This document shows positions 3,974-54,748 of a DNA stretch of 64,000 nucleotides, piece by piece. Positions within the stretch are counted from its first letter, which is position 1. Every line of letters begins with the position of its first letter. Source of the DNA: a virus (lineage: Duplodnaviria > Caudoviricetes); IMG/VR virus record IMGVR_UViG_3300034061_001224, positions 684-64,683 of that record. One strand, written 5' to 3'. A program made the position numbers and the translations under genes. A model generated the notes under the pieces. It was not told the origin of the DNA and made no database searches. It saw only the letters and a list, made by a program, of their open reading frames with translations.

Positions 3974-4513
3974 ATGGAAGAGCACCTTTGCATAGACCCG
4001 CCGTTGGATAACCCCAACGAGATAACAGCCATGCTGACCCGAGCTAGGGAGTGCTTCACTATGTCTGCCTCTTTCTTAGAAATGATGGGGTTTGATTTGC
4101 CTGAACCCACGGCAGATGACAAGAAGGAAGCTATGCAGATTTATCACTCTGCACCTAACGCCCCAACTAAGCCTACTACACTAGGTGCAGCAGTTATTCT
4201 CGACCGTATGCTTGCTAAGCACGATTACGTTTTAGCAGACCCATCTAATAAGATGCGTAACTACGTTGTCTACAAACTATTCGAACATGCCGAAAGCGAA
4301 GACCCTAAGGTCAGTTTAAAAGCGCTTGAGTTTCTAGCGAAGTCCTCCGATGTGGGACTATTTGCCGACAAGATTGAAATTAACATTAATCAGAAGTCCA
4401 CAGTTGAGTTAGAGTCAGAATTGTCATCACTGCTTAAAGGTATTGCACAACGAAGTCTAGCACCAAAAAACAACACGTATGATGCAACTGATGCGGATTT
4501 TGTAGATGCTTAG
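3974..4513 (+). CDS. terS: probable terminase small subunit
   Basis: Directly upstream of and overlapping TerL. Typical size, with a LKALEFLAK..VGLF motif. Confidence 0.6.
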   Translation: MEEHLCIDPPLDNPNEITAMLTRARECFTMSASFLEMMGFDLPEPTADDKKEAMQIYHSAPNAPTKPTTLGAAVILDRMLAKHDYVLADPSNKMRNYVVYKLFEHAESEDPKVSLKALEFLAKSSDVGLFADKIEININQKSTVELESELSSLLKGIAQRSLAPKNNTYDATDADFVDA

Positions 4514-6917
4514 TACTTTATCTGAGGCAGATTTAAAACTGGCCCTCGCCTATGCAACACCTAGCGAAAAGATTGCTATCAATAAGATACTAGCAGAGTT
4601 GAAGCAAAGAAATTTGCGTGAAGCCGCCCAAGAAAACTTCATGGCTTTTGTTGAATATATTTGGCCAGACTTTATTAACGGGCGGCATCATCAGCGGATG
4701 GCTAAGTTATTTGAGGATGTAGCTTCAGGTAAGGAAAAAAGGATCATTATTAACTTAGGTCCTAGGCACACAAAGTCAGAGTTTGCCTCCTATTTATTAC
4801 CAGCATGGCTATTGGGTAAGTTTCCTAATAAAAAGATTATGCAGGTATCGAACACGTCAGAACTTGCAGAAGGTTTTGGTCGTAAAGTACGTAACTTGGT
4901 GGGTTCTGAACGATTCAGGGAAGTGTTTCCCGATGTTGAATTAAGGCAAGATTCTAAAGCGGCAGGTCGATGGAACACTAACAAGAACGGTGAGTATTTT
5001 GCGACAGGTGTTGGCGGCGCGTTAGCAGGTCGAGGTGCTGATATATGCATTATTGACGATCCACACACTGAAGCAGAAGCAATAGCAGCAAGAACAAACC
5101 CTGCTATCTACGATAAGACATATGATTGGTACACCTCAGGGCCTCGGCAGCGGTTACAACCTAAGGGATCTGTAGTTCTGGTTATGTGTATGACAGGTGA
5201 CACTAACGTATTAATGGCCAACGGGACAACAACGCAGTTAAAAAATATACGCGTTGGAGATGAAGTAGCTACATTTGATAAGGGCAGGTTAGGAGTAAGT
5301 AAGGTCAATAATTGGCGGTCAAGTGGTACGGATACCATATACACAGTACAAACGCAATCTGGCATAATTCTTCGAGCAAATGAGAGGCATCCGTTTCTTG
5401 TGCTTAATGAAGGGGTATTAGAATGGACCAGATTGAGATCGTTAAAACCGGGTATGTTGCTTGTAGCAATGAAGGATGTACAAGACCTGCAAGGTCACAA
5501 ATTAAACCGGGGATGTGCCATCCATGCCAAGCTAGAGAGTGCTACCATAAGAAAAACCCTGAAGCCCCTTATCACCCGATTGGGCACCATGGTAAGTGGA
5601 AAGGTAAAGCTTGCGCATGTGGAAAGCCAGCAAAAGCTAAAGGACTATGTGACTCTTGTTACTCAAAAAAATACCCGTCAGCTAAATCAACACCAGAGCA
5701 AAATAGAGCGCGACGAATTAAACACAGATATGGCATCACTGCGGAAACCTACGACCAAATGGTTGAAGCGCGTGGCAACAGATGCGATGTTTGTGGGCAA
5801 TTACCCTCTGCAAAAAATACAAGAGCTCATTGGAGCGGAAAATTATGCATCGACCATTGCCATAACACCGGAAAAGTCAGAGGGCTACTTTGCAACGACT
5901 GCAACCTCGCAGTTGGATATGGGAAGACAGCAGATATTCTCGAACGAGCTGCGGCGTATCTCCGACTTCACGACTGATCCGATAGTTAGTATCGTTTATG
6001 CAGGTAAGGAAGAAGTATTTGATGTTGAGGTAGACCGCACTGAAAATTTCATTGCTAATGGGATAGTCAGCCACAACACTCGCTGGCATGCCAGAGATTT
6101 AACAGGGCAGATAATAGAGGCATCACAGAAAAGTGATCGTATGGATCAGTGGAGACTGGTGCAGTTCCCGGCTATTTTACCTAGTGGTAAGCCATTATGG
6201 CCTGAGTTTTGGTCCCTACCTGAGCTAGAGGCAGTTAAAGCAGAGATCCCGAATAGTAAGTGGCAAGCGCAGTACCAACAAGAACCTACGTCAGAAGAAG
6301 GTGCGATTGTTAAGCGTGAATGGTGGCGAGAATGGGATAAAGGCAACCCACCACACAATATAGAGTTTACGTTAATGTCATGGGATACAGCGTTTGAAAA
6401 GCATAACAATGCTGACTATAGTGCGATGACGGTATGGGGTGTATTTAATACAGAGGATGAAGATGGGTTTGAGAGGCCCAATATCATTTTGCTTGATGCA
6501 GTTAAGAAACGTGTGGAGTTTCCTGAATTAAAGCAGTGGGTGCTTGAGGCGTATAAGGAGTGGGAGCCTGACGGGATTATTATTGAGAAAAGGGCATCTG
6601 GTGCGTCACTAATACAAGAGCTTAGACGTATGGGCATTCCTGTACAAGACTTTACACCCACTAAAGGTAATGACAAGATTTCACGACTTAATAGTGTGGC
6701 TGATATTTTTGCTTCTGGTTTTGTGTGGGCACCACAGACACGTTGGGCGGAAGAAGTAATAGATGATGTGGCATCATTCCCTGCTGGAGCGCATGATGAT
6801 ATTGTCGATACAGTCAGTATGGCGATGATTAGATTTAGGCAGGGTGGGTTCGTAGGAACTCAATTAGATGAACCCGAGGAAGAACAATACTTTAAGCGTA
6901 AAGTAGCTTATTATTAA
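4506..6917 (+). CDS. terL: terminase large subunit, intein-containing
   Basis: Walker A-like GPRHTKSE, Walker B IIDDP, VM/TRWH motif, and RNase H-like nuclease domain (SWDTA..ADYSA..FPAGAHDDIVD). Confidence 0.95.
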   Translation: MLSTLSEADLKLALAYATPSEKIAINKILAELKQRNLREAAQENFMAFVEYIWPDFINGRHHQRMAKLFEDVASGKEKRIIINLGPRHTKSEFASYLLPAWLLGKFPNKKIMQVSNTSELAEGFGRKVRNLVGSERFREVFPDVELRQDSKAAGRWNTNKNGEYFATGVGGALAGRGADICIIDDPHTEAEAIAARTNPAIYDKTYDWYTSGPRQRLQPKGSVVLVMCMTGDTNVLMANGTTTQLKNIRVGDEVATFDKGRLGVSKVNNWRSSGTDTIYTVQTQSGIILRANERHPFLVLNEGVLEWTRLRSLKPGMLLVAMKDVQDLQGHKLNRGCAIHAKLESATIRKTLKPLITRLGTMVSGKVKLAHVESQQKLKDYVTLVTQKNTRQLNQHQSKIERDELNTDMASLRKPTTKWLKRVATDAMFVGNYPLQKIQELIGAENYASTIAITPEKSEGYFATTATSQLDMGRQQIFSNELRRISDFTTDPIVSIVYAGKEEVFDVEVDRTENFIANGIVSHNTRWHARDLTGQIIEASQKSDRMDQWRLVQFPAILPSGKPLWPEFWSLPELEAVKAEIPNSKWQAQYQQEPTSEEGAIVKREWWREWDKGNPPHNIEFTLMSWDTAFEKHNNADYSAMTVWGVFNTEDEDGFERPNIILLDAVKKRVEFPELKQWVLEAYKEWEPDGIIIEKRASGASLIQELRRMGIPVQDFTPTKGNDKISRLNSVADIFASGFVWAPQTRWAEEVIDDVASFPAGAHDDIVDTVSMAMIRFRQGGFVGTQLDEPEEEQYFKRKVAYY
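5187..6077 (+). mobile_element. intein in TerL (297 aa)
   Basis: Starts CMTGDTNVLMANG (block A), has RANERHPFL (block B) and VFDVEVDRTENFIANGIVSHN (blocks F/G), with +1 Thr. Removal restores VVLVM-TRWH. Confidence 0.93.
5423..5977 (+). CDS. endonuclease VII-family nuclease nested out of frame in the TerL intein
   Basis: RYGITAETYDQM..CDVC..LCIDHCHNTGKVRGLLCNDCNLAVG motif, N-terminal CxxC pairs, and GAAGGGGT RBS at 5409-5416. Confidence 0.88.
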   Translation: MDQIEIVKTGYVACSNEGCTRPARSQIKPGMCHPCQARECYHKKNPEAPYHPIGHHGKWKGKACACGKPAKAKGLCDSCYSKKYPSAKSTPEQNRARRIKHRYGITAETYDQMVEARGNRCDVCGQLPSAKNTRAHWSGKLCIDHCHNTGKVRGLLCNDCNLAVGYGKTADILERAAAYLRLHD

Positions 6918-51668: not shown

Positions 51669-54503
51669 TTATTTAATTTTCCCCATTTTAAAATCCAAGC
51701 TAGGCCCGTAACCACCCTCTGCATCTAATGGAATATCTGGCATCCAAGCAGGGGGTATTCGTAACTGTTCAATCACAAAACGTAATACTGAATCAGCCTC
51801 ATTTTCAGGGGCTAATAGATACACTGCGTCATGGATCGTAAGCAGGATACGATGTTTCTTTTCAATGCGTAGCATGGCTTCTGCAATAATACATCTGGCC
51901 ATTGCTTGTGTCAGGCCTTGAAATACTTTGCTGCCATACAGTTTATCACGTTCGCGTCTATTTTTCAGAACCGACCATTCCATGCGTGGGCCTTTAGTAG
52001 TTTGAACTGCTGTTTGCTTTAAGTCTGGGTACCGCATATGCAGACCCGATGGCAACATCGCGCCTTCTGACCCATATACTTCAATGATATTGTCCCGTCC
52101 CATCCGCATATACTGATTATCACGTACTGCGTACAGTACCTGTTCACCTTGCTCCCATGTGTTTACTACGTGGGTGTACTCGTTTCGATATAGCTTAACC
52201 ATACGTTTAGCTTCCGCTTCACCTATATCAATTCCACTCATTTGTTTAGTCTGTTGTCGTAATTTGTTGTGTCCTGTCCCGTAGATTAAACTGAGCTGAC
52301 AATTTGAAACTAGCTTTCCACCCACAGTAAACCTGTGCCTAGGTCCAGCATTTAGTATGTCGTAGACTTTTCTAACCTTTCTTTTAGGTTGCGCCATCCC
52401 TTGCATTTGCTGTGCACGGAGTCCCAAGCTTGCGCTATTATCTGTTCCCCCGTTAACCCCATCCGTGTGTATTTGCATACTGTTGACGCCTGCACATAAG
52501 GATTTTCTTTCCACTGAGGCAGTGGTATTTGCACTCCCTTCCAACTCACATGTAAAGTATTCCGCCTGTTTGCTGTTTGCTCTTTCATCGAAGCAAATCT
52601 CAGATTTCCCGCTGCGTAATGCCCGTTGTTGTTTATCCGGTCTACTGTAAGATCTATCGAACAGCTTGGTAAAGTTTTCATATACAGCACACATTCCGCT
52701 ACTGAACCAAACATAAACTGAATACCACGGGCTCCATAATTTTTGTATCCTTTGTCCTTTGGATTGGTGCATCGTTGATGCATTGCATTCGCTCGTTTCT
52801 GCAGTCTTTGTGTTAGATTGTCTTCTACCAGTAGATGTTGAGCTTGTCCATGTCGTTGTGTCAATGCACAACTGTGGCATTGTTTGCTCTTCCCTGACAT
52901 TAAATTGTCCGAAGTTTGCCAAGCCTCTTTCCCACAAAGGCATCTCACCTGTATATGTGGTACTTGCCTCTTGCCTTTTCTGCATATATCTAGCGAGATT
53001 ATCTCCCATGAGTGAAATCTCTTGCCCTTCATCTCCGGTGATAACGATTTGATAACCTTTATTGGCGGCTTCTTGGAACTCGCAGGTTGAACCATCTGAT
53101 AAATATACGATATGGTCTGGTGTTGCTGTAAGGTGTTGGTATGTGATGACATCTCTTTCTCCTTGGAATATAAGCCCATCGTGGCTAACCCATTCTACCC
53201 CATCCCATACTTTATCATCTAATAAAACTGTTTCTATGGGTTTAAGCCCCTTATCAGTTAATACTAATTCACCCTCGGCTATACAAGTTTTACCCATAAA
53301 CCGCTGTGAATCGGTTACTTCGGTATACCCTATGTTATAAACCTGTGAGGCAAAGTCTTTATACAAATCAACACCCCGTCCCAGCGCTGCTACCTTATCC
53401 ATCTGGCCTCCAAATGCTAGGCCTAACCGTAATTCGATAGCTGATAAGTCAGCACCTACAATCACATAACCTTCAGGAGCGACAATTGCGCTTTTCAGTT
53501 TAGACTTGCGAGGAAGATTTTGTAGATTGACCGAATCCGTCGCACTCCACCTACCTGTTCTGGCTCCGTAATACAACAAAGGTACAGGTAATAAGCTACT
53601 TCTGTTGGGGCGTTCAGCAATTGCGATAAACCGCTGACTGCGGGTCTCTTCAAGTGTAGATTTAGTGCCCAGCCTAGCTGCAACAACCGCTTGTACCCTA
53701 GGGTCATCATGTTCAGCTAAAGCTTTAAATCCTTCATCAGTCTTGGCAAAGGCATAAGTCTCTACGCCTTTACTATTAAACTTCATCGGAGGTTCAACAC
53801 CAAACATATCAAGCACTGAAGCAAACTTCTGGTTAGACATTAAGTCTTCTTTACTGACCCCGCAGTCTATTAGCAACTGTTCTTTTTGCTGCTGTACATC
53901 TGCTAAGTGAGCTTCTAATACATCTCTATCTAATAACAGCTGCGGGTCGGTGTACATCCTAATGGTTATATCAATTAGCTTTAATTCTGCTGTTGTGAAC
54001 TTAGGACGCATTGCCATAAACAGTTTATACGTCAGCTCTACGTCATTGGTGCAATACCCAGCATATGCCTCGATTTCAGCTTCAGAGAAATCAGCTCTTC
54101 GCATACCAATAGCGTTATGTACTTCGATACCTTTCTTACCTAACTCATAATACTCGGCTAATGCAGCTAAACTACCACCTACTGATACTGCGTGTAACGC
54201 ACGTGCCATACTCAGAGTACATACAATTGCCTTAGGGTGAATACCGAATCGCCAACCAAGAATAGCACCATCAAACATGGCATTGTGAGCAACAACCATA
54301 CTATTAGCCCAATCAAACTGAGATAACCACTGCTTAGTAGCTTCAAAAGACCCAGTAAACCATTGGGTCTTCTCGTTATTTTTCTTTACAGCAATACCGA
54401 TAGCTTCAAAGCGAAAGTCATTTACATATGCTTCCGTAGTCATCTTAGACAACGAGTATTCTTTTGAGTAAAAAGATTCAAAGTCGAGTGTTAGAAGGTT
54501 CAT
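51669..54503 (-). CDS. polA: family A DNA polymerase, intein-containing
   Basis: Exo DFES/AHNAMFD, TGRWS..NLQNLP, motif A DLSAIELR, motif B R..GKT/CQLSLIYG, motif C TIHD. Start moved to 54503 (TGATG overlap). Confidence 0.93.
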   Translation of the reverse strand: MNLLTLDFESFYSKEYSLSKMTTEAYVNDFRFEAIGIAVKKNNEKTQWFTGSFEATKQWLSQFDWANSMVVAHNAMFDGAILGWRFGIHPKAIVCTLSMARALHAVSVGGSLAALAEYYELGKKGIEVHNAIGMRRADFSEAEIEAYAGYCTNDVELTYKLFMAMRPKFTTAELKLIDITIRMYTDPQLLLDRDVLEAHLADVQQQKEQLLIDCGVSKEDLMSNQKFASVLDMFGVEPPMKFNSKGVETYAFAKTDEGFKALAEHDDPRVQAVVAARLGTKSTLEETRSQRFIAIAERPNRSSLLPVPLLYYGARTGRWSATDSVNLQNLPRKSKLKSAIVAPEGYVIVGADLSAIELRLGLAFGGQMDKVAALGRGVDLYKDFASQVYNIGYTEVTDSQRFMGKTCIAEGELVLTDKGLKPIETVLLDDKVWDGVEWVSHDGLIFQGERDVITYQHLTATPDHIVYLSDGSTCEFQEAANKGYQIVITGDEGQEISLMGDNLARYMQKRQEASTTYTGEMPLWERGLANFGQFNVREEQTMPQLCIDTTTWTSSTSTGRRQSNTKTAETSECNASTMHQSKGQRIQKLWSPWYSVYVWFSSGMCAVYENFTKLFDRSYSRPDKQQRALRSGKSEICFDERANSKQAEYFTCELEGSANTTASVERKSLCAGVNSMQIHTDGVNGGTDNSASLGLRAQQMQGMAQPKRKVRKVYDILNAGPRHRFTVGGKLVSNCQLSLIYGTGHNKLRQQTKQMSGIDIGEAEAKRMVKLYRNEYTHVVNTWEQGEQVLYAVRDNQYMRMGRDNIIEVYGSEGAMLPSGLHMRYPDLKQTAVQTTKGPRMEWSVLKNRRERDKLYGSKVFQGLTQAMARCIIAEAMLRIEKKHRILLTIHDAVYLLAPENEADSVLRFVIEQLRIPPAWMPDIPLDAEGGYGPSLDFKMGKIK
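52302..53285 (-). mobile_element. intein in DNA polymerase motif B (328 aa)
   Basis: Starts CIAEGELVLTDKG, has TATPDH (block B) and VYDILNAGPRHRFTVGGKLVSN (blocks F/G), with +1 Cys. Removal restores RFMGKT-CQLSLIYG. Confidence 0.92.
52352..53152 (-). CDS. HNH homing endonuclease nested out of frame in the polymerase intein
   Basis: GKRFHSW..CLCG..CHSC..AMHQRCTNPKDKGYKNYGARGI..TVDRINNNGHYAAGNLRFA..NRR. AAGGAG RBS 6 nt before the ATG at 53152. Confidence 0.88.
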   Translation of the reverse strand: MSSHTNTLQQHQTISYIYQMVQPASSKKPPIKVIKSLSPEMKGKRFHSWEIISLDICRKGKRQVPHIQVRCLCGKEAWQTSDNLMSGKSKQCHSCALTQRHGQAQHLLVEDNLTQRLQKRANAMHQRCTNPKDKGYKNYGARGIQFMFGSVAECVLYMKTLPSCSIDLTVDRINNNGHYAAGNLRFASMKEQTANRRNTLHVSWKGVQIPLPQWKENPYVQASTVCKYTRMGLTGEQIIAQAWDSVHSKCKGWRNLKERLEKSTTY

Positions 54504-54748
54504 CAGAAATACCCCAAGGTATGAGCTGCCCACAATGCATTTGTGGTAATAAGCCCTGCAAACCAAAATCTTATAACCCTTCGCATCACTAAGATTTGCC
54601 CAACTGCTTGGCCTATTAAGTCTTTGTCCACCTCATCAATACAATTAGCAGACTCTCTGTAGCCTAACAAACACATAACTAATATGTGTGCTGGTATAGA
54701 TGGGTCGTACCCAAGAGGTATTGTTTTGAAACCATCAGTCTCTTTCAT
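54503..54748 (-). CDS. hypothetical protein
   Basis: Stop overlaps the polymerase start. Hydrophobic C-terminus. Confidence 0.6.
   Translation of the reverse strand: MKETDGFKTIPLGYDPSIPAHILVMCLLGYRESANCIDEVDKDLIGQAVGQILVMRRVIRFWFAGLITTNALWAAHTLGYF

What the first reader, a model, noticed from the sequence alone, without database searches (positions are those of the whole stretch)
5187..6077. TerL intein carries its endonuclease as a separate gene in another reading frame
Seen: the 297-aa intein (C228..N524, inserted at VM|TRWH) has intact splicing blocks, but its middle ~185 residues show no LAGLIDADG or HNH motif. The same bases read in the +2 frame give a 184-aa ORF (5423-5977) with an endonuclease VII signature (RYGIT..CDVC..IDHCH.TGKVRGLLC..CN) and extra CxxC pairs. 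It has its own RBS (GAAGGGGT, 5409-5416). It starts at the end of the N-terminal splicing region and stops just before block F, the slot where an in-frame endonuclease normally sits, and both frames stay stop-free for about 555 nt. Known: inteins canonically encode the homing endonuclease in frame, as a domain of the spliced-out protein. Inference: this is a dual-coding element in which the intein splices out the shadow-frame linker, so an independently translated nuclease gene can sit inside an essential gene. I do not know of this as an established intein class, but I could not check the literature.
Basis: partly seen in the sequence, partly recalled or inferred. Interest (0 to 1): 0.93.

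Follow-up and report, generated by a model that had tools for sequence, protein, structure and literature searches.

The report
Terminase intein with overprinted homing nuclease
A lake phage's DNA-packaging gene carries a self-splicing intein whose middle also encodes, one base out of frame, a separate endonuclease VII-type enzyme that probably spreads the insert; the layout is real and under selection, but a 2025 preprint already described it in phages of actinobacteria.

Summary
terL (4506-6917) carries a 297-aa intein (5187-6077). A 184-aa ORF (5423-5977) lies at frame offset +2 and matches Pfam Endonuclease_7 at 1.2e-18.

It is not an artefact. Independent lake-metagenome contigs show no indels, and all 132 related loci with a nuclease match keep the nuclease nested out of frame in a long terL frame.

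Selection acts on the nuclease frame. Its third codon positions vary most, and amino-acid identity is 66% against 40% in the intein frame. The intein frame there is a stop-free, disordered linker. A start codon (83 of 83) and a GGAG-like Shine-Dalgarno sequence are conserved.

The intein is patchy among close terL alleles, and an intein-less allele joined exactly at 5186|6078 co-occurs in three runs.

This architecture was reported by Gosselin, Arsenault and Gogarten (bioRxiv 10.1101/2025.01.02.630785) for actinophage TerL inteins: the same TerL site and a homologous nuclease. This scan also flagged it before on three other genomes.

Verdict: a new member of a known kind, in a ~43% GC lake phage of unknown host. 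Translation, splicing and cleavage remain untested.

The parts
4506..6917 (+). terL precursor ORF (803 aa, stop included): N-extein + intein + C-extein
   Evidence: It is the only TerL match in the 64.7-kb virus record.
4506..5186 (+). N-extein (aa 1-227), ending ...VVLVM
   Evidence: Alignment A1. Intein-less alleles join exactly here.
5187..6077 (+). Intein (297 aa), class-1-type residues C1 ... H296-N297, followed by T+1
   Evidence: Pfam Intein_splicing 2.3e-16. C1, H68, H296 and N297 are invariant in 19 of 19 homologues (A3).
5187..5480 (+). N-terminal splicing lobe (intein aa 1-98)
   Evidence: AF2 block means of pLDDT 89-95 over aa 1-90, falling to 76 over 91-100; beta-rich. Conserved in A3.
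5481..5930 (+). Intein-frame linker (aa 99-248): stop-free shadow reading of the nuclease gene, predicted disordered
   Evidence: pLDDT below 50 and no secondary structure. Amino-acid identity in this frame across the nested ORF (40%) is about that of the non-coding third frame (37%).
5931..6077 (+). C-terminal splicing part (aa 249-297, blocks F/G, ...NGIVSHN)
   Evidence: Block means of pLDDT 90-94 from aa 261 (59 over 251-260). Nearly invariant in A3.
5409..5416 (+). Shine-Dalgarno-like GAAGGGGT, written inside intein codons E-G-V
   Evidence: Across 83 sequences: G at -11 in 83, G at -10 in 82, A at -9 in 64, G at -8 in 79. A core SD (GGAG/GAGG/AGGA) is present in 65 of 83. The window itself has the weaker GGGG.
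5423..5977 (+). Nested nuclease gene (184 aa + TGA), offset +2 to terL; its ATG is formed by gaA-TGg of intein codons E-W
   Evidence: A start codon sits at the homologous position in 83 of 83 sequences (78 ATG, 5 GTG). The first start in the nuclease frame falls on the same Trp codon in Gordonia and Mycobacterium phages.
5462..5662 (+). N-terminal Cys-rich region of the nuclease (aa 14-80); putative zinc-binding DNA-recognition part
   Evidence: C14, C19, C32, C35, C64, C66 and C76 are invariant in 58 of 58 (A2). No Pfam family matches this part. The function is inferred.
5711..5965 (+). Endonuclease VII catalytic core (aa 97-181)
   Evidence: Pfam PF02945 1.2e-18. Profile A2 hits T4 endonuclease VII 1e7d at 2.1e-4. 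C121, C124, D144, H145, H147, C157, C160 and N161 are invariant in 58 of 58.
6078..6917 (+). C-extein, starting TRWHARDL (stop included)

Best explanation
This is a two-gene selfish cassette inside the phage's only terL gene.

In the terL frame it is a mini-intein-type Hint domain: an N lobe (intein aa 1-98) and a C part (aa 249-297), joined by a ~150-residue disordered loop. After translation the intein splices itself and the loop out and restores TerL.

The DNA of that loop, read at offset +2, is a separate gene for a 184-aa endonuclease VII-family (beta-beta-alpha-Me) nuclease with a Cys-rich N-terminal part. The nuclease is made by internal initiation on the terL message. Its Shine-Dalgarno sequence and its ATG are written into intein codons (E-G-V ... 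E-W).

The nuclease most likely cuts intein-less terL alleles near the VM|TRWH codons during co-infection. Repair from the intein-bearing copy then copies the whole cassette in (homing).

Shown here: the anatomy, conservation of the layout, which frame is selected where, conservation of the start signals, patchy distribution, and co-existing empty alleles. Inferred: translation of the nested ORF, splicing, the cleavage target, and homing.
For: 1. Domains. The two frames hit Intein_splicing (2.3e-16) and Endonuclease_7 (1.2e-18).

2. Fold. The structured part of the intein model aligns with the Ssp DnaB mini-intein 1mi8 at Z 22.1, rmsd 1.2 A, 132 residues. Residues 99-248 have pLDDT below 50 and no secondary structure.

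3. Conserved layout. In 132 of 132 loci with a nuclease match (out of 138 held, duplicates included), a long open frame at +1 to the nuclease frame encloses the nuclease ORF. The same offset and the same VLVM|CMTGDT...SHN|TRWH site occur in Gordonia phages Angelicage and Nordenberg and Mycobacterium phage Phlyer.

4. Selection. Among 83 distinct sequences, the mean pairwise difference at nuclease codon positions 1/2/3 is 0.29/0.21/0.51. Amino-acid identity is 0.66 in the nuclease frame, 0.40 in the intein frame and 0.37 in the third frame. The nuclease frame is the more conserved in 3395 of 3403 pairs. Constraint switches along the overlap. In nuclease codons 1-10 the values are 0.48/0.38/0.23, so the intein frame is the selected one there. 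From codon 20 onward, position 3 differs by 0.47-0.62, so the nuclease frame is selected. The catalytic and zinc-binding residues are invariant in 58 of 58.

5. Stop avoidance. The terL frame has 0 stops in 82 of 82 sequences, against a mean of 14.2 stops in the third frame. Synonymous shuffles leave the terL frame open in 19% of trials. Re-encoding with the phage's codon usage leaves it open in 0.2%.

6. Start signals. A start codon is at the homologous site in 83 of 83. The G-G-A-G pattern at -11..-8 uses synonymous third positions of intein codons.

7. Mobility. Of the 80 IMG/VR loci with the closest N-exteins, 8 carry a complete insert, 1 is cut inside it, 1 is undetermined and 70 join seamlessly. 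The seamless set includes L218 (92% and 89% extein identity). Nuclease identity tracks extein identity poorly (Spearman 0.20, p 0.07, n 81). L087 has a 90% identical extein but a 68% identical nuclease. Against actinophages, the exteins are 24-26% identical, the intein lobes 39-63% and the nuclease 42-62%. Contigs of three lake runs (X5, X6, X9) join 5186 to 6078, skipping exactly 891 nt, beside intein-bearing contigs.

8. Essentiality. The record has one TerL and one Intein_splicing match.
Against: - There is no expression evidence. No RNA run holds the stretch, so translation of the nested ORF is inferred from sequence signals only.
- The window's own Shine-Dalgarno is the weaker GGGG variant. 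18 of 83 sequences lack a core SD.
- The nuclease model is mediocre (pLDDT 68). Structure searches gave only weak matches: Foldseek ranks T4 endonuclease VII first at E 0.28, and VIA-align gives Z no higher than 2.8. The family assignment therefore rests on sequence profiles.
- The sequences are related, so the counts are not independent events.
- The empty-allele joints rest on one contig per run with only 30 letters on the shorter side, laid at 90% likeness.
- One database protein (P0001, 476 aa, one 2097-bp contig) reads N-extein, the intein N part and the nuclease in a single frame, and ends at the nuclease stop.
- The Endonuclease_7 family also contains junction resolvases, so a homing role is not proven.
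Confidence: 0.85

Rival explanations
1. Assembly or sequencing artefact: two compensating indels hide a nuclease that is really in frame with the intein.
For: The record is a metagenome assembly. One database protein (P0001) reads the intein N part and the nuclease in one frame.
Against: Contigs from four runs show no inserted or deleted letters over the covered parts. X5 covers 5138-6107 in two pieces with 0 gaps. The same offset holds in 132 of 132 loci and in isolate genomes from GenBank. The third codon position of the nuclease frame is the fast one. P0001 ends at the nuclease stop and so lacks blocks F/G and the C-extein. It cannot be a working intein.
Confidence: 0.01
2. The nested ORF is a silent or decaying relic of a free-standing nuclease gene that once invaded the intein. 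It stays open only because terL must stay open.
For: Nothing shows translation. One relative (L141) carries a 72-codon deletion that removes part of the nuclease. The preprint raises pseudogenisation as a possibility.
Against: Keeping terL open does not keep the +2 frame open. That frame is stop-free over 555 nt in 0 of 785 windows of other genes. The codon-position pattern, the 66% versus 40% identity, the invariant active-site residues and the conserved start codon and SD all indicate ongoing selection on the protein.
Confidence: 0.05
3. The nuclease is made by a -1 ribosomal frameshift from the terL frame, as an N-extein/intein-N/nuclease fusion, rather than by internal initiation.
For: Offset +2 is equivalent to -1. 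P0001 shows that such a fusion reading can exist.
Against: In the window a TGA in the nuclease frame lies 4 codons before the ATG (5408-5410), and no X XXY YYZ heptamer lies between them (read by eye). The start codon is conserved in 83 of 83 and an SD sits at the right spacing.
Confidence: 0.03
4. The nuclease has a job for the phage, resolving branched DNA for packaging as T4 endonuclease VII does (recalled), and is not, or not only, a homing enzyme.
For: It belongs to the Endonuclease_7 family, sits in the packaging gene, and is the only match to itself in the genome.
Against: Near-identical terL alleles without the cassette co-occur in the same runs. 70 of the 80 closest terL loci lack it. 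So it is dispensable. Its nearest relatives outside inteins are small free-standing phage genes annotated endonuclease VII.
Confidence: 0.05

Closest known systems
[quoted passage not shown]
   Same: - Same host gene and same insertion site (VLVM|CMTGDT...SHN|TRWH).
- Same frame offset.
- Homologous nuclease: 61.6% amino-acid identity over residues 75-183.
- Homologous splicing lobes, 39-63% identical.
- The first start in the nuclease frame falls on the same intein Trp codon.
   Different: - The host phage differs: ~43% GC, from lake water, with a portal nearest to Pelagibacter, Planktothrix and Synechococcus phages at ~44%. The exteins are only 24-26% identical. The host is unknown.
- The nuclease here is longer. 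It has an extra N-terminal Cys4 element (C14, C19, C32, C35) that has no counterpart in the actinophage ORFs printed (my reading; the tblastn alignments begin at residue 54-57).
- The main text of the preprint does not contain the words 'metagenom' or 'ribosom'. The start-signal and frame hand-over analyses and the spread in IMG/VR are therefore additions. Its supplements could not be opened.
Cyanobacterial dnaX intein with an out-of-frame LAGLIDADG homing endonuclease (Phillips, DeSimone, Gogarten, bioRxiv 10.64898/2026.09.14.751524; abstract and section 17 read)
   Same: An overlapping-frame homing endonuclease inside an intein, low dN/dS in the endonuclease frame and relaxed constraint in the intein frame, and sporadic distribution with co-existing intein-free alleles.
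   Different: A cellular gene rather than a phage gene, and a different endonuclease family.
ShiLan-type insertions: out-of-frame HNH endonuclease inside a phage DNA methylase gene (Arsenault et al., Genes 2025, PMC11855218; abstract read)
   Same: A hidden nuclease ORF overprinted on a stop-free in-frame insert of a phage gene.
   Different: That insert has no splicing domain and stays in the host protein as a loop. Here an intein removes the shadow-frame peptide.
Canonical inteins with an in-frame homing endonuclease, including a same-site relative (L055)
   Same: L055 has an intein at the same TerL site, with Intein_splicing at 9.4e-15 and 44% identity to the window's intein.
   Different: The middle of L055 is an in-frame LAGLIDADG_3 domain (5.4e-5, above the cut-off). 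The window's middle is a disordered shadow frame, and its nuclease is a separate polypeptide.
Split inteins with a free-standing endonuclease gene between the halves (Dassa et al. 2009, known to me only as cited in the preprint)
   Same: A separately translated nuclease gene occupies the slot between the intein's N and C splicing parts.
   Different: There the host gene is broken into two ORFs and spliced in trans. Here a single ORF is preserved by stop avoidance.

Membership tests
Intein (Hint fold, class-1-type) | Profile match to the intein splicing domain above the curated threshold | tested here: met
   PF14890 at 60.4 bits against a cut-off of 35.8. It is also found by a genome search.
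Intein (Hint fold, class-1-type) | Nucleophile at position 1, block-B His, penultimate His, terminal Asn, and a Ser/Thr/Cys at +1 | tested here: met
   C1, H68, H296 and N297 are invariant in 19 of 19. T525 follows the intein. The block names are recalled.
Intein (Hint fold, class-1-type) | Hint fold | tested here: met
   AF2 model against Ssp DnaB mini-intein 1mi8: Z 22.1, rmsd 1.2 A, 132 aligned. 90 chains reach Z of 8 or more.
Intein (Hint fold, class-1-type) | Protein splicing activity | not testable with these tools
   Inferred from the intact residues and from this being the only terL in a record rated 100% complete.
Endonuclease VII family (Pfam PF02945, beta-beta-alpha-Me nucleases) | Profile match above the curated threshold | tested here: met
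   67.2 bits against a cut-off of 23.6, profile positions 2-81 of 82. PHROG 2914 at 7.7e-29. Profile A2 against T4 endonuclease VII 1e7d at 2.1e-4.
Endonuclease VII family (Pfam PF02945, beta-beta-alpha-Me nucleases) | Zinc-binding Cys pairs and the D-H-x-H ... N catalytic residues | tested here: met
   C121, C124, D144, H145, H147, C157, C160 and N161 are invariant in 58 of 58. Their equivalence to the T4 residues is recalled, not aligned here.
Endonuclease VII family (Pfam PF02945, beta-beta-alpha-Me nucleases) | Matching three-dimensional fold | tested here: inconclusive
   Model pLDDT 68. Foldseek ranks T4 endonuclease VII first to third, but at E 0.28-0.54. VIA-align gives Z 2.1-2.8.
Out-of-frame EndoVII-type TerL inteins (Gosselin et al. 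2025) | Intein in terL with the nuclease between the splicing blocks, in 'frame 3' relative to the intein | tested here: met
   Offset +2 in the window and in Angelicage, Nordenberg and Phlyer.
Out-of-frame EndoVII-type TerL inteins (Gosselin et al. 2025) | Homology of nuclease, splicing domain and insertion site to the described members | tested here: met
   Nuclease 61.6% identical to the cluster-47 phages. The site is the same. The intein lobes are 39-63% identical.
Out-of-frame EndoVII-type TerL inteins (Gosselin et al. 2025) | Actinobacteriophage host range (the scope of the survey, not a mechanistic feature) | tested here: inconclusive
   43% GC, lake-water runs, and nearest portals from phages of Pelagibacter, cyanobacteria and Roseobacter at ~44% or less. 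The host is not known. Low-GC freshwater actinobacteria cannot be excluded (the caveat is my own knowledge).
Homing endonuclease (functional class) | Sporadic presence among close alleles, with empty sites joined exactly at the element's ends | tested here: met
   Of the 80 closest terL loci, 70 are empty and 8 are full. A joint 5186|6078 is seen in 3 runs.
Homing endonuclease (functional class) | Cleavage of the empty allele and copying of the element into it | not testable with these tools
   Needs an enzyme assay or a co-infection experiment.

The most novel reading that the evidence does not exclude
The intein plus overprinted nuclease is one obligate two-frame mobile unit. Its translation signals are hard-wired into conserved intein codons (SD in E-G-V, start in the x-Trp codons). 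It has crossed between very distant phage lineages, from high-GC actinophages to ~43% GC lake phages, and is common in freshwater viromes. It would then be a major, long-overlooked intein class rather than a curiosity of PhagesDB. Together with same-site relatives that carry an in-frame LAGLIDADG domain (L055), it would be a natural series for testing the 'splicing first, endonuclease later' origin of inteins. A bolder sub-reading, at about 5%, is that the nuclease also serves packaging as a branch resolvase.
Probability: 0.45. Interest if true: 0.55.

Novelty: new member of a known kind. Interest (0 to 1): 0.4.

Why it matters
- The case shows that a gene for a separately translated enzyme can sit inside an essential gene at no cost to the host protein, because the intein removes the nonsense peptide that the other frame produces. 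It is a clean natural example of overprinting with the division of constraint visible along the sequence.
- For annotation, such nested nuclease genes are usually not called, and the inteins are mistaken for decaying or mini-inteins. The three GenBank records inspected annotate only 'terminase' over the nested ORF.
- What this case adds to the 2025 preprint:
  - The element lies outside the cultured actinophage collection, with 233 tblastn-confirmed relatives in IMG/VR.
  - The start codon and Shine-Dalgarno sequence are conserved.
  - There is a measurable hand-over of selection between the two frames.
  - Intein-bearing and intein-free alleles co-exist in the same lake samples.
- The core idea is no longer new, and nothing here has been tested at the bench.

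Tried and rejected
- Structure of the nuclease. The AF2 model (pLDDT 68) gave no significant PDB match by Foldseek (best is T4 endonuclease VII at E 0.28) or by VIA-align on Foldseek's list (Z no higher than 2.8). I did not run pdb_via_wide. The family call rests on sequence profiles.
- In-frame fusions. The 'longer' protein search examined 195 candidates and returned 2. P0002 (329 aa) is an unrelated longer Endonuclease_7 protein. P0001 (476 aa) is an N-extein/intein-N/nuclease read-through that stops at the nuclease stop. I read P0001 as a deletion or an assembly error, but I could not see its DNA. The tool warns that finding none is weak evidence.
- Expression. No RNA holder is listed for the stretch, so nothing can be said about transcription or translation.
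- -1 frameshifting. I checked by eye for a slippery heptamer between the upstream TGA (5408-5410) and the ATG and found none. No dedicated tool was run.
- Promoter and terminator scan, RNA-structure analysis and complex prediction: not run, judged uninformative for this question.
- A formal overlapping-gene dN/dS model and intein-versus-extein topology tests were not run. Simpler codon-position, identity and rank-correlation measures were used instead.
- The second intein of this genome. The nested ORF in polA (52352-53179, minus strand) has no Pfam hit at E 0.01 or better, and PF14890 does not detect that intein. I did not pursue it.
- Papers. For Gosselin et al. 2025 I read the outline, found passages and section 15. 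For Phillips et al. 2026, the outline and section 17. For Arsenault et al. 2025, the outline and abstract only. Supplements are closed and may hold the insertion-site tables and the full list of EndoVII-type inteins.
- Literature searches behind the statement that the kind is in print only from this group. One search ('intein' + 'alternative reading frame' + 'homing endonuclease') found 0 papers.


Full report
**What is there.** The window is nearly a whole virus record of 64,683 bp that CheckV rates 100% complete. It has about 43% G+C.

ORF 4506-6917 (+, 803 aa) is the large terminase. It matches PHROG 38 at 3.5e-98 and Pfam Terminase_6C at 2.1e-10. Residues 228-524 (nt 5187-6077) interrupt it between ...VVLVM and TRWH.... 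They match Pfam Intein_splicing at 2.3e-16. The match covers only the two ends, and no family above threshold covers the middle.

At frame offset +2, ORF 5423-5977 encodes 184 aa. These match Pfam Endonuclease_7 at 1.2e-18 (residues 97-181) and PHROG 2914 'endonuclease VII' at 7.7e-29. GAAGGGGT lies at 5409-5416.

**More than chance, and not an artefact.**
- In other long ORFs of this phage, a 555-nt stop-free stretch occurs in the +2 frame in 0 of 785 windows and in the +1 frame in 10 of 785.
- Re-encoding the nuclease protein with the phage's codon usage leaves the terL frame open in 0.2% of 20,000 trials, with a mean of 4.9 stops.
- The stretch is held by 20 listed runs from 19 studies, nearly all labelled lake water.
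- Contigs of four of those runs, laid on 4900-6400, show no inserted or deleted letters. Run X5 covers 5138-6107 with 0 gaps.

**Relatives.**
- Among isolate phages, the best tblastn matches of the nested protein lie inside the terL genes of Gordonia phages Angelicage, Affeca, Keitabear and Sedona (61.6% identity over residues 75-183). Next come Nordenberg-like Gordonia phages (42%) and Mycobacterium phages of the Pipefish/Phlyer group (48.6%). After these come small free-standing 'endonuclease VII' genes of T7-like phages.
- In Angelicage, Nordenberg and Phlyer the match is at offset +2 to the annotated terL CDS.
- An alignment shows the same insertion site, VLVM|CMTGDT...SHN|TRWH.
- In IMG/VR, the intein query gave 54 loci. 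The nuclease query gave 233 confirmed relatives, of which the best 80 were kept.
- Of the 138 loci then held, 132 have a nuclease match. In all 132 a long open frame at +1 to the nuclease frame encloses it, while the third frame is open for at most 348 nt. These 132 include duplicates, contig-end fragments, the window's own record and the three isolates.
- The other 6 loci are contig-end fragments, plus L055.

**Which frame is selected.** From 121 loci with complete nuclease ORFs I took 82 distinct nucleotide sequences and added the window.
- Mean pairwise difference at nuclease codon positions 1, 2 and 3 is 0.29, 0.21 and 0.51.
- Amino-acid identity is 0.66 in the nuclease frame, 0.40 in the intein frame and 0.37 in the stop-filled third frame.
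- The nuclease frame is the more conserved in 3395 of 3403 pairs.
- In nuclease codons 1-10 (intein aa ~80-89) the pattern is reversed (0.48/0.38/0.23), so the intein frame is the constrained one there.
- Codons 11-19 are mixed.
- From codon 20 to the end, position 3 is the fastest (0.47-0.62).

This hand-over coincides with the structure model of the intein. Block means of pLDDT are 89-95 over residues 1-90, 76 over 91-100, 59 over 251-260 and 90-94 from 261 on. Residues 99-248 have pLDDT below 50 and no secondary structure. The confident part superposes on the Ssp DnaB mini-intein 1mi8 at Z 22.1, rmsd 1.2 A, 132 residues.

In the nuclease alignment of 58 sequences, the Cys pairs and the D144-H145-x-H147 ... 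C157-x-x-C160-N161 residues are invariant. So are seven Cys in the N-terminal 80 residues.

In the intein alignment of 19 sequences, C1, H68, H296 and N297 are invariant, and the region 96-260 is poorly conserved.

**Stop avoidance.** The terL frame has no stop within the nested ORF in 82 of 82 sequences (one sequence with an N was dropped). The third frame has a mean of 14.2 stops. Shuffling synonymous codons within each ORF leaves the terL frame open in 19% of trials on average, and in 19.5% for the window. The sequences are related, so these are not 82 independent trials.

**Start signals.**
- A start codon sits at the position homologous to 5423 in 83 of 83 sequences (78 ATG, 5 GTG). It is formed by the last base of the codon before the intein's invariant Trp plus the TG of TGG.
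- That last base is A in 78 and G in 5. By my own reading of the code, either base is synonymous for the Glu and Lys codons that usually stand there.
- Upstream, G at -11 (83 of 83), G at -10 (82), A at -9 (64) and G at -8 (79) spell GGAG, 7 nt before the start, inside Gly-Val or Gly-Glu codons. A core SD is present in 65 of 83. The window has GGGG.
- In the three actinophage loci, the first start codon of the nuclease frame falls on the same Trp codon.

This points to internal initiation. A -1 frameshift is unlikely, because a TGA closes the nuclease frame 4 codons before the ATG in the window, and I see no slippery heptamer in between.

**Mobility.**
- Of the 80 IMG/VR loci with the closest N-exteins, 8 carry a complete insert (675-909 nt). 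One is cut inside the intein, one is undetermined, and 70 join N- and C-extein with no gap. Those 70 include L218, with 92% and 89% extein identity.
- L140 is on the same contig as L087. Its exteins are 87% and 90% identical to the window's, but its intein is only 56% and its nuclease 68% identical. L061 and L006 have 62-73% exteins but 83-84% nucleases.
- Over 81 sequences, nuclease identity and C-extein identity correlate weakly (Spearman 0.20, p 0.07).
- Against the actinophages, the exteins are 24-26% identical and the splicing lobes 39-63%.
- In three lake runs (X5, X6, X9), one contig each joins 5186 to 6078, skipping exactly the 891 nt of the intein, beside contigs that carry the intein. 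The shorter side of each joint is only 30 letters, so this is precise but thin evidence.
- L141 carries a 72-codon deletion that keeps both frames open but removes part of the nuclease. This fits decay within a homing cycle.
- L055 has an intein at the same site whose middle is an in-frame LAGLIDADG_3 domain. The same splicing scaffold has therefore been paired with two different nucleases in two different ways.

**Mechanism proposed.** The terL message yields two products. One is the TerL precursor, from which the intein removes itself and the shadow-frame loop. The other, from the internal SD and ATG, is a ~20-kDa endonuclease VII-type enzyme. Its Cys-rich N-terminal part probably reads the empty terL site. 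It cuts that site in a co-infecting intein-less phage, and repair copies the cassette in.

The anatomy, the selection pattern, the start signals and the patchy distribution are shown here. Translation, splicing, target and homing are inferred. The record has only one terL, so splicing must work if the phage is viable (inference).

**Comparison with what is known.**
- The architecture is in print as a preprint. [quoted passage not shown] They call it previously unreported, name Angelicage, Affeca, Keitabear and Sedona as cluster 47, and propose origin by invasion of an intein by a free-standing endonuclease gene.
- The same group describes an out-of-frame LAGLIDADG gene in the cyanobacterial dnaX intein, with frame-specific selection (bioRxiv 10.64898/2026.09.14.751524).
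- They also describe a hidden HNH gene in a phage methylase insert (PMC11855218).
- The window's element passes every test for the Gosselin class except the survey's scope, actinophages (see Membership tests). The host here is unknown. The nearest portals are from phages of Pelagibacter, cyanobacteria and Roseobacter, at 44% or less.
- The main text of the preprint does not contain 'metagenom' or 'ribosom'. Its supplements could not be read.

**Earlier notes of this scan.** Three other genomes were flagged for the same thing, and follow-up agents reached the same verdict. I tested the claims independently here and agree.

**Verdict.** The feature is real, conserved and under selection. It is a new member of a known kind, with added detail on start signals, frame hand-over, environmental spread and co-existing empty alleles. 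Interest 0.4.

Noticed in passing
window 51669-54566 (-), nested ORF 52352-53179 (-): The family-A DNA polymerase ORF (965 aa; Pfam DNA_pol_A and 3'-5' exonuclease) has a long insert. The nested ORF has no Pfam hit at E 0.01 or better, and PF14890 does not detect an intein there.
   Followed up: partly
L055 2501-3514 (IMG/VR contig of 85.8 kb): An intein at the same TerL site (VVIQ|CMTGDT...SHN|TRWS), 44% identical to the window's, carries an in-frame LAGLIDADG_3 domain in place of the overprinted EndoVII gene.
   Followed up: partly
L141 1769-2443: A 675-nt version of the cassette sits in a terL whose exteins are ~78% identical to the window's. A 72-codon deletion keeps both frames open but removes nuclease residues ~37-108. 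It may be a decaying copy.
   Followed up: partly
P0001 (JGI protein, 476 aa, contig 2097 bp): A single database protein reads N-extein, the intein N part and the nuclease in one frame, skipping about 30 nuclease residues, and stops at the nuclease stop. It could be a deletion allele or an assembly error.
   Followed up: partly
window 5104-5154: Contig depth in the lake runs jumps at this 50-nt stretch of the N-extein (for example 162 against 22-25 in X9). Short contigs from other genomes match it at 90-95%. It is probably a conserved terL motif shared by many phages.
   Followed up: no
L001-L003 (GenBank records of Gordonia phages Angelicage and Nordenberg, Mycobacterium phage Phlyer): The records annotate only 'terminase large subunit' over the nested nuclease ORF (Phlyer also marks a putative intein). 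None annotates the nested nuclease ORF.
   Followed up: no
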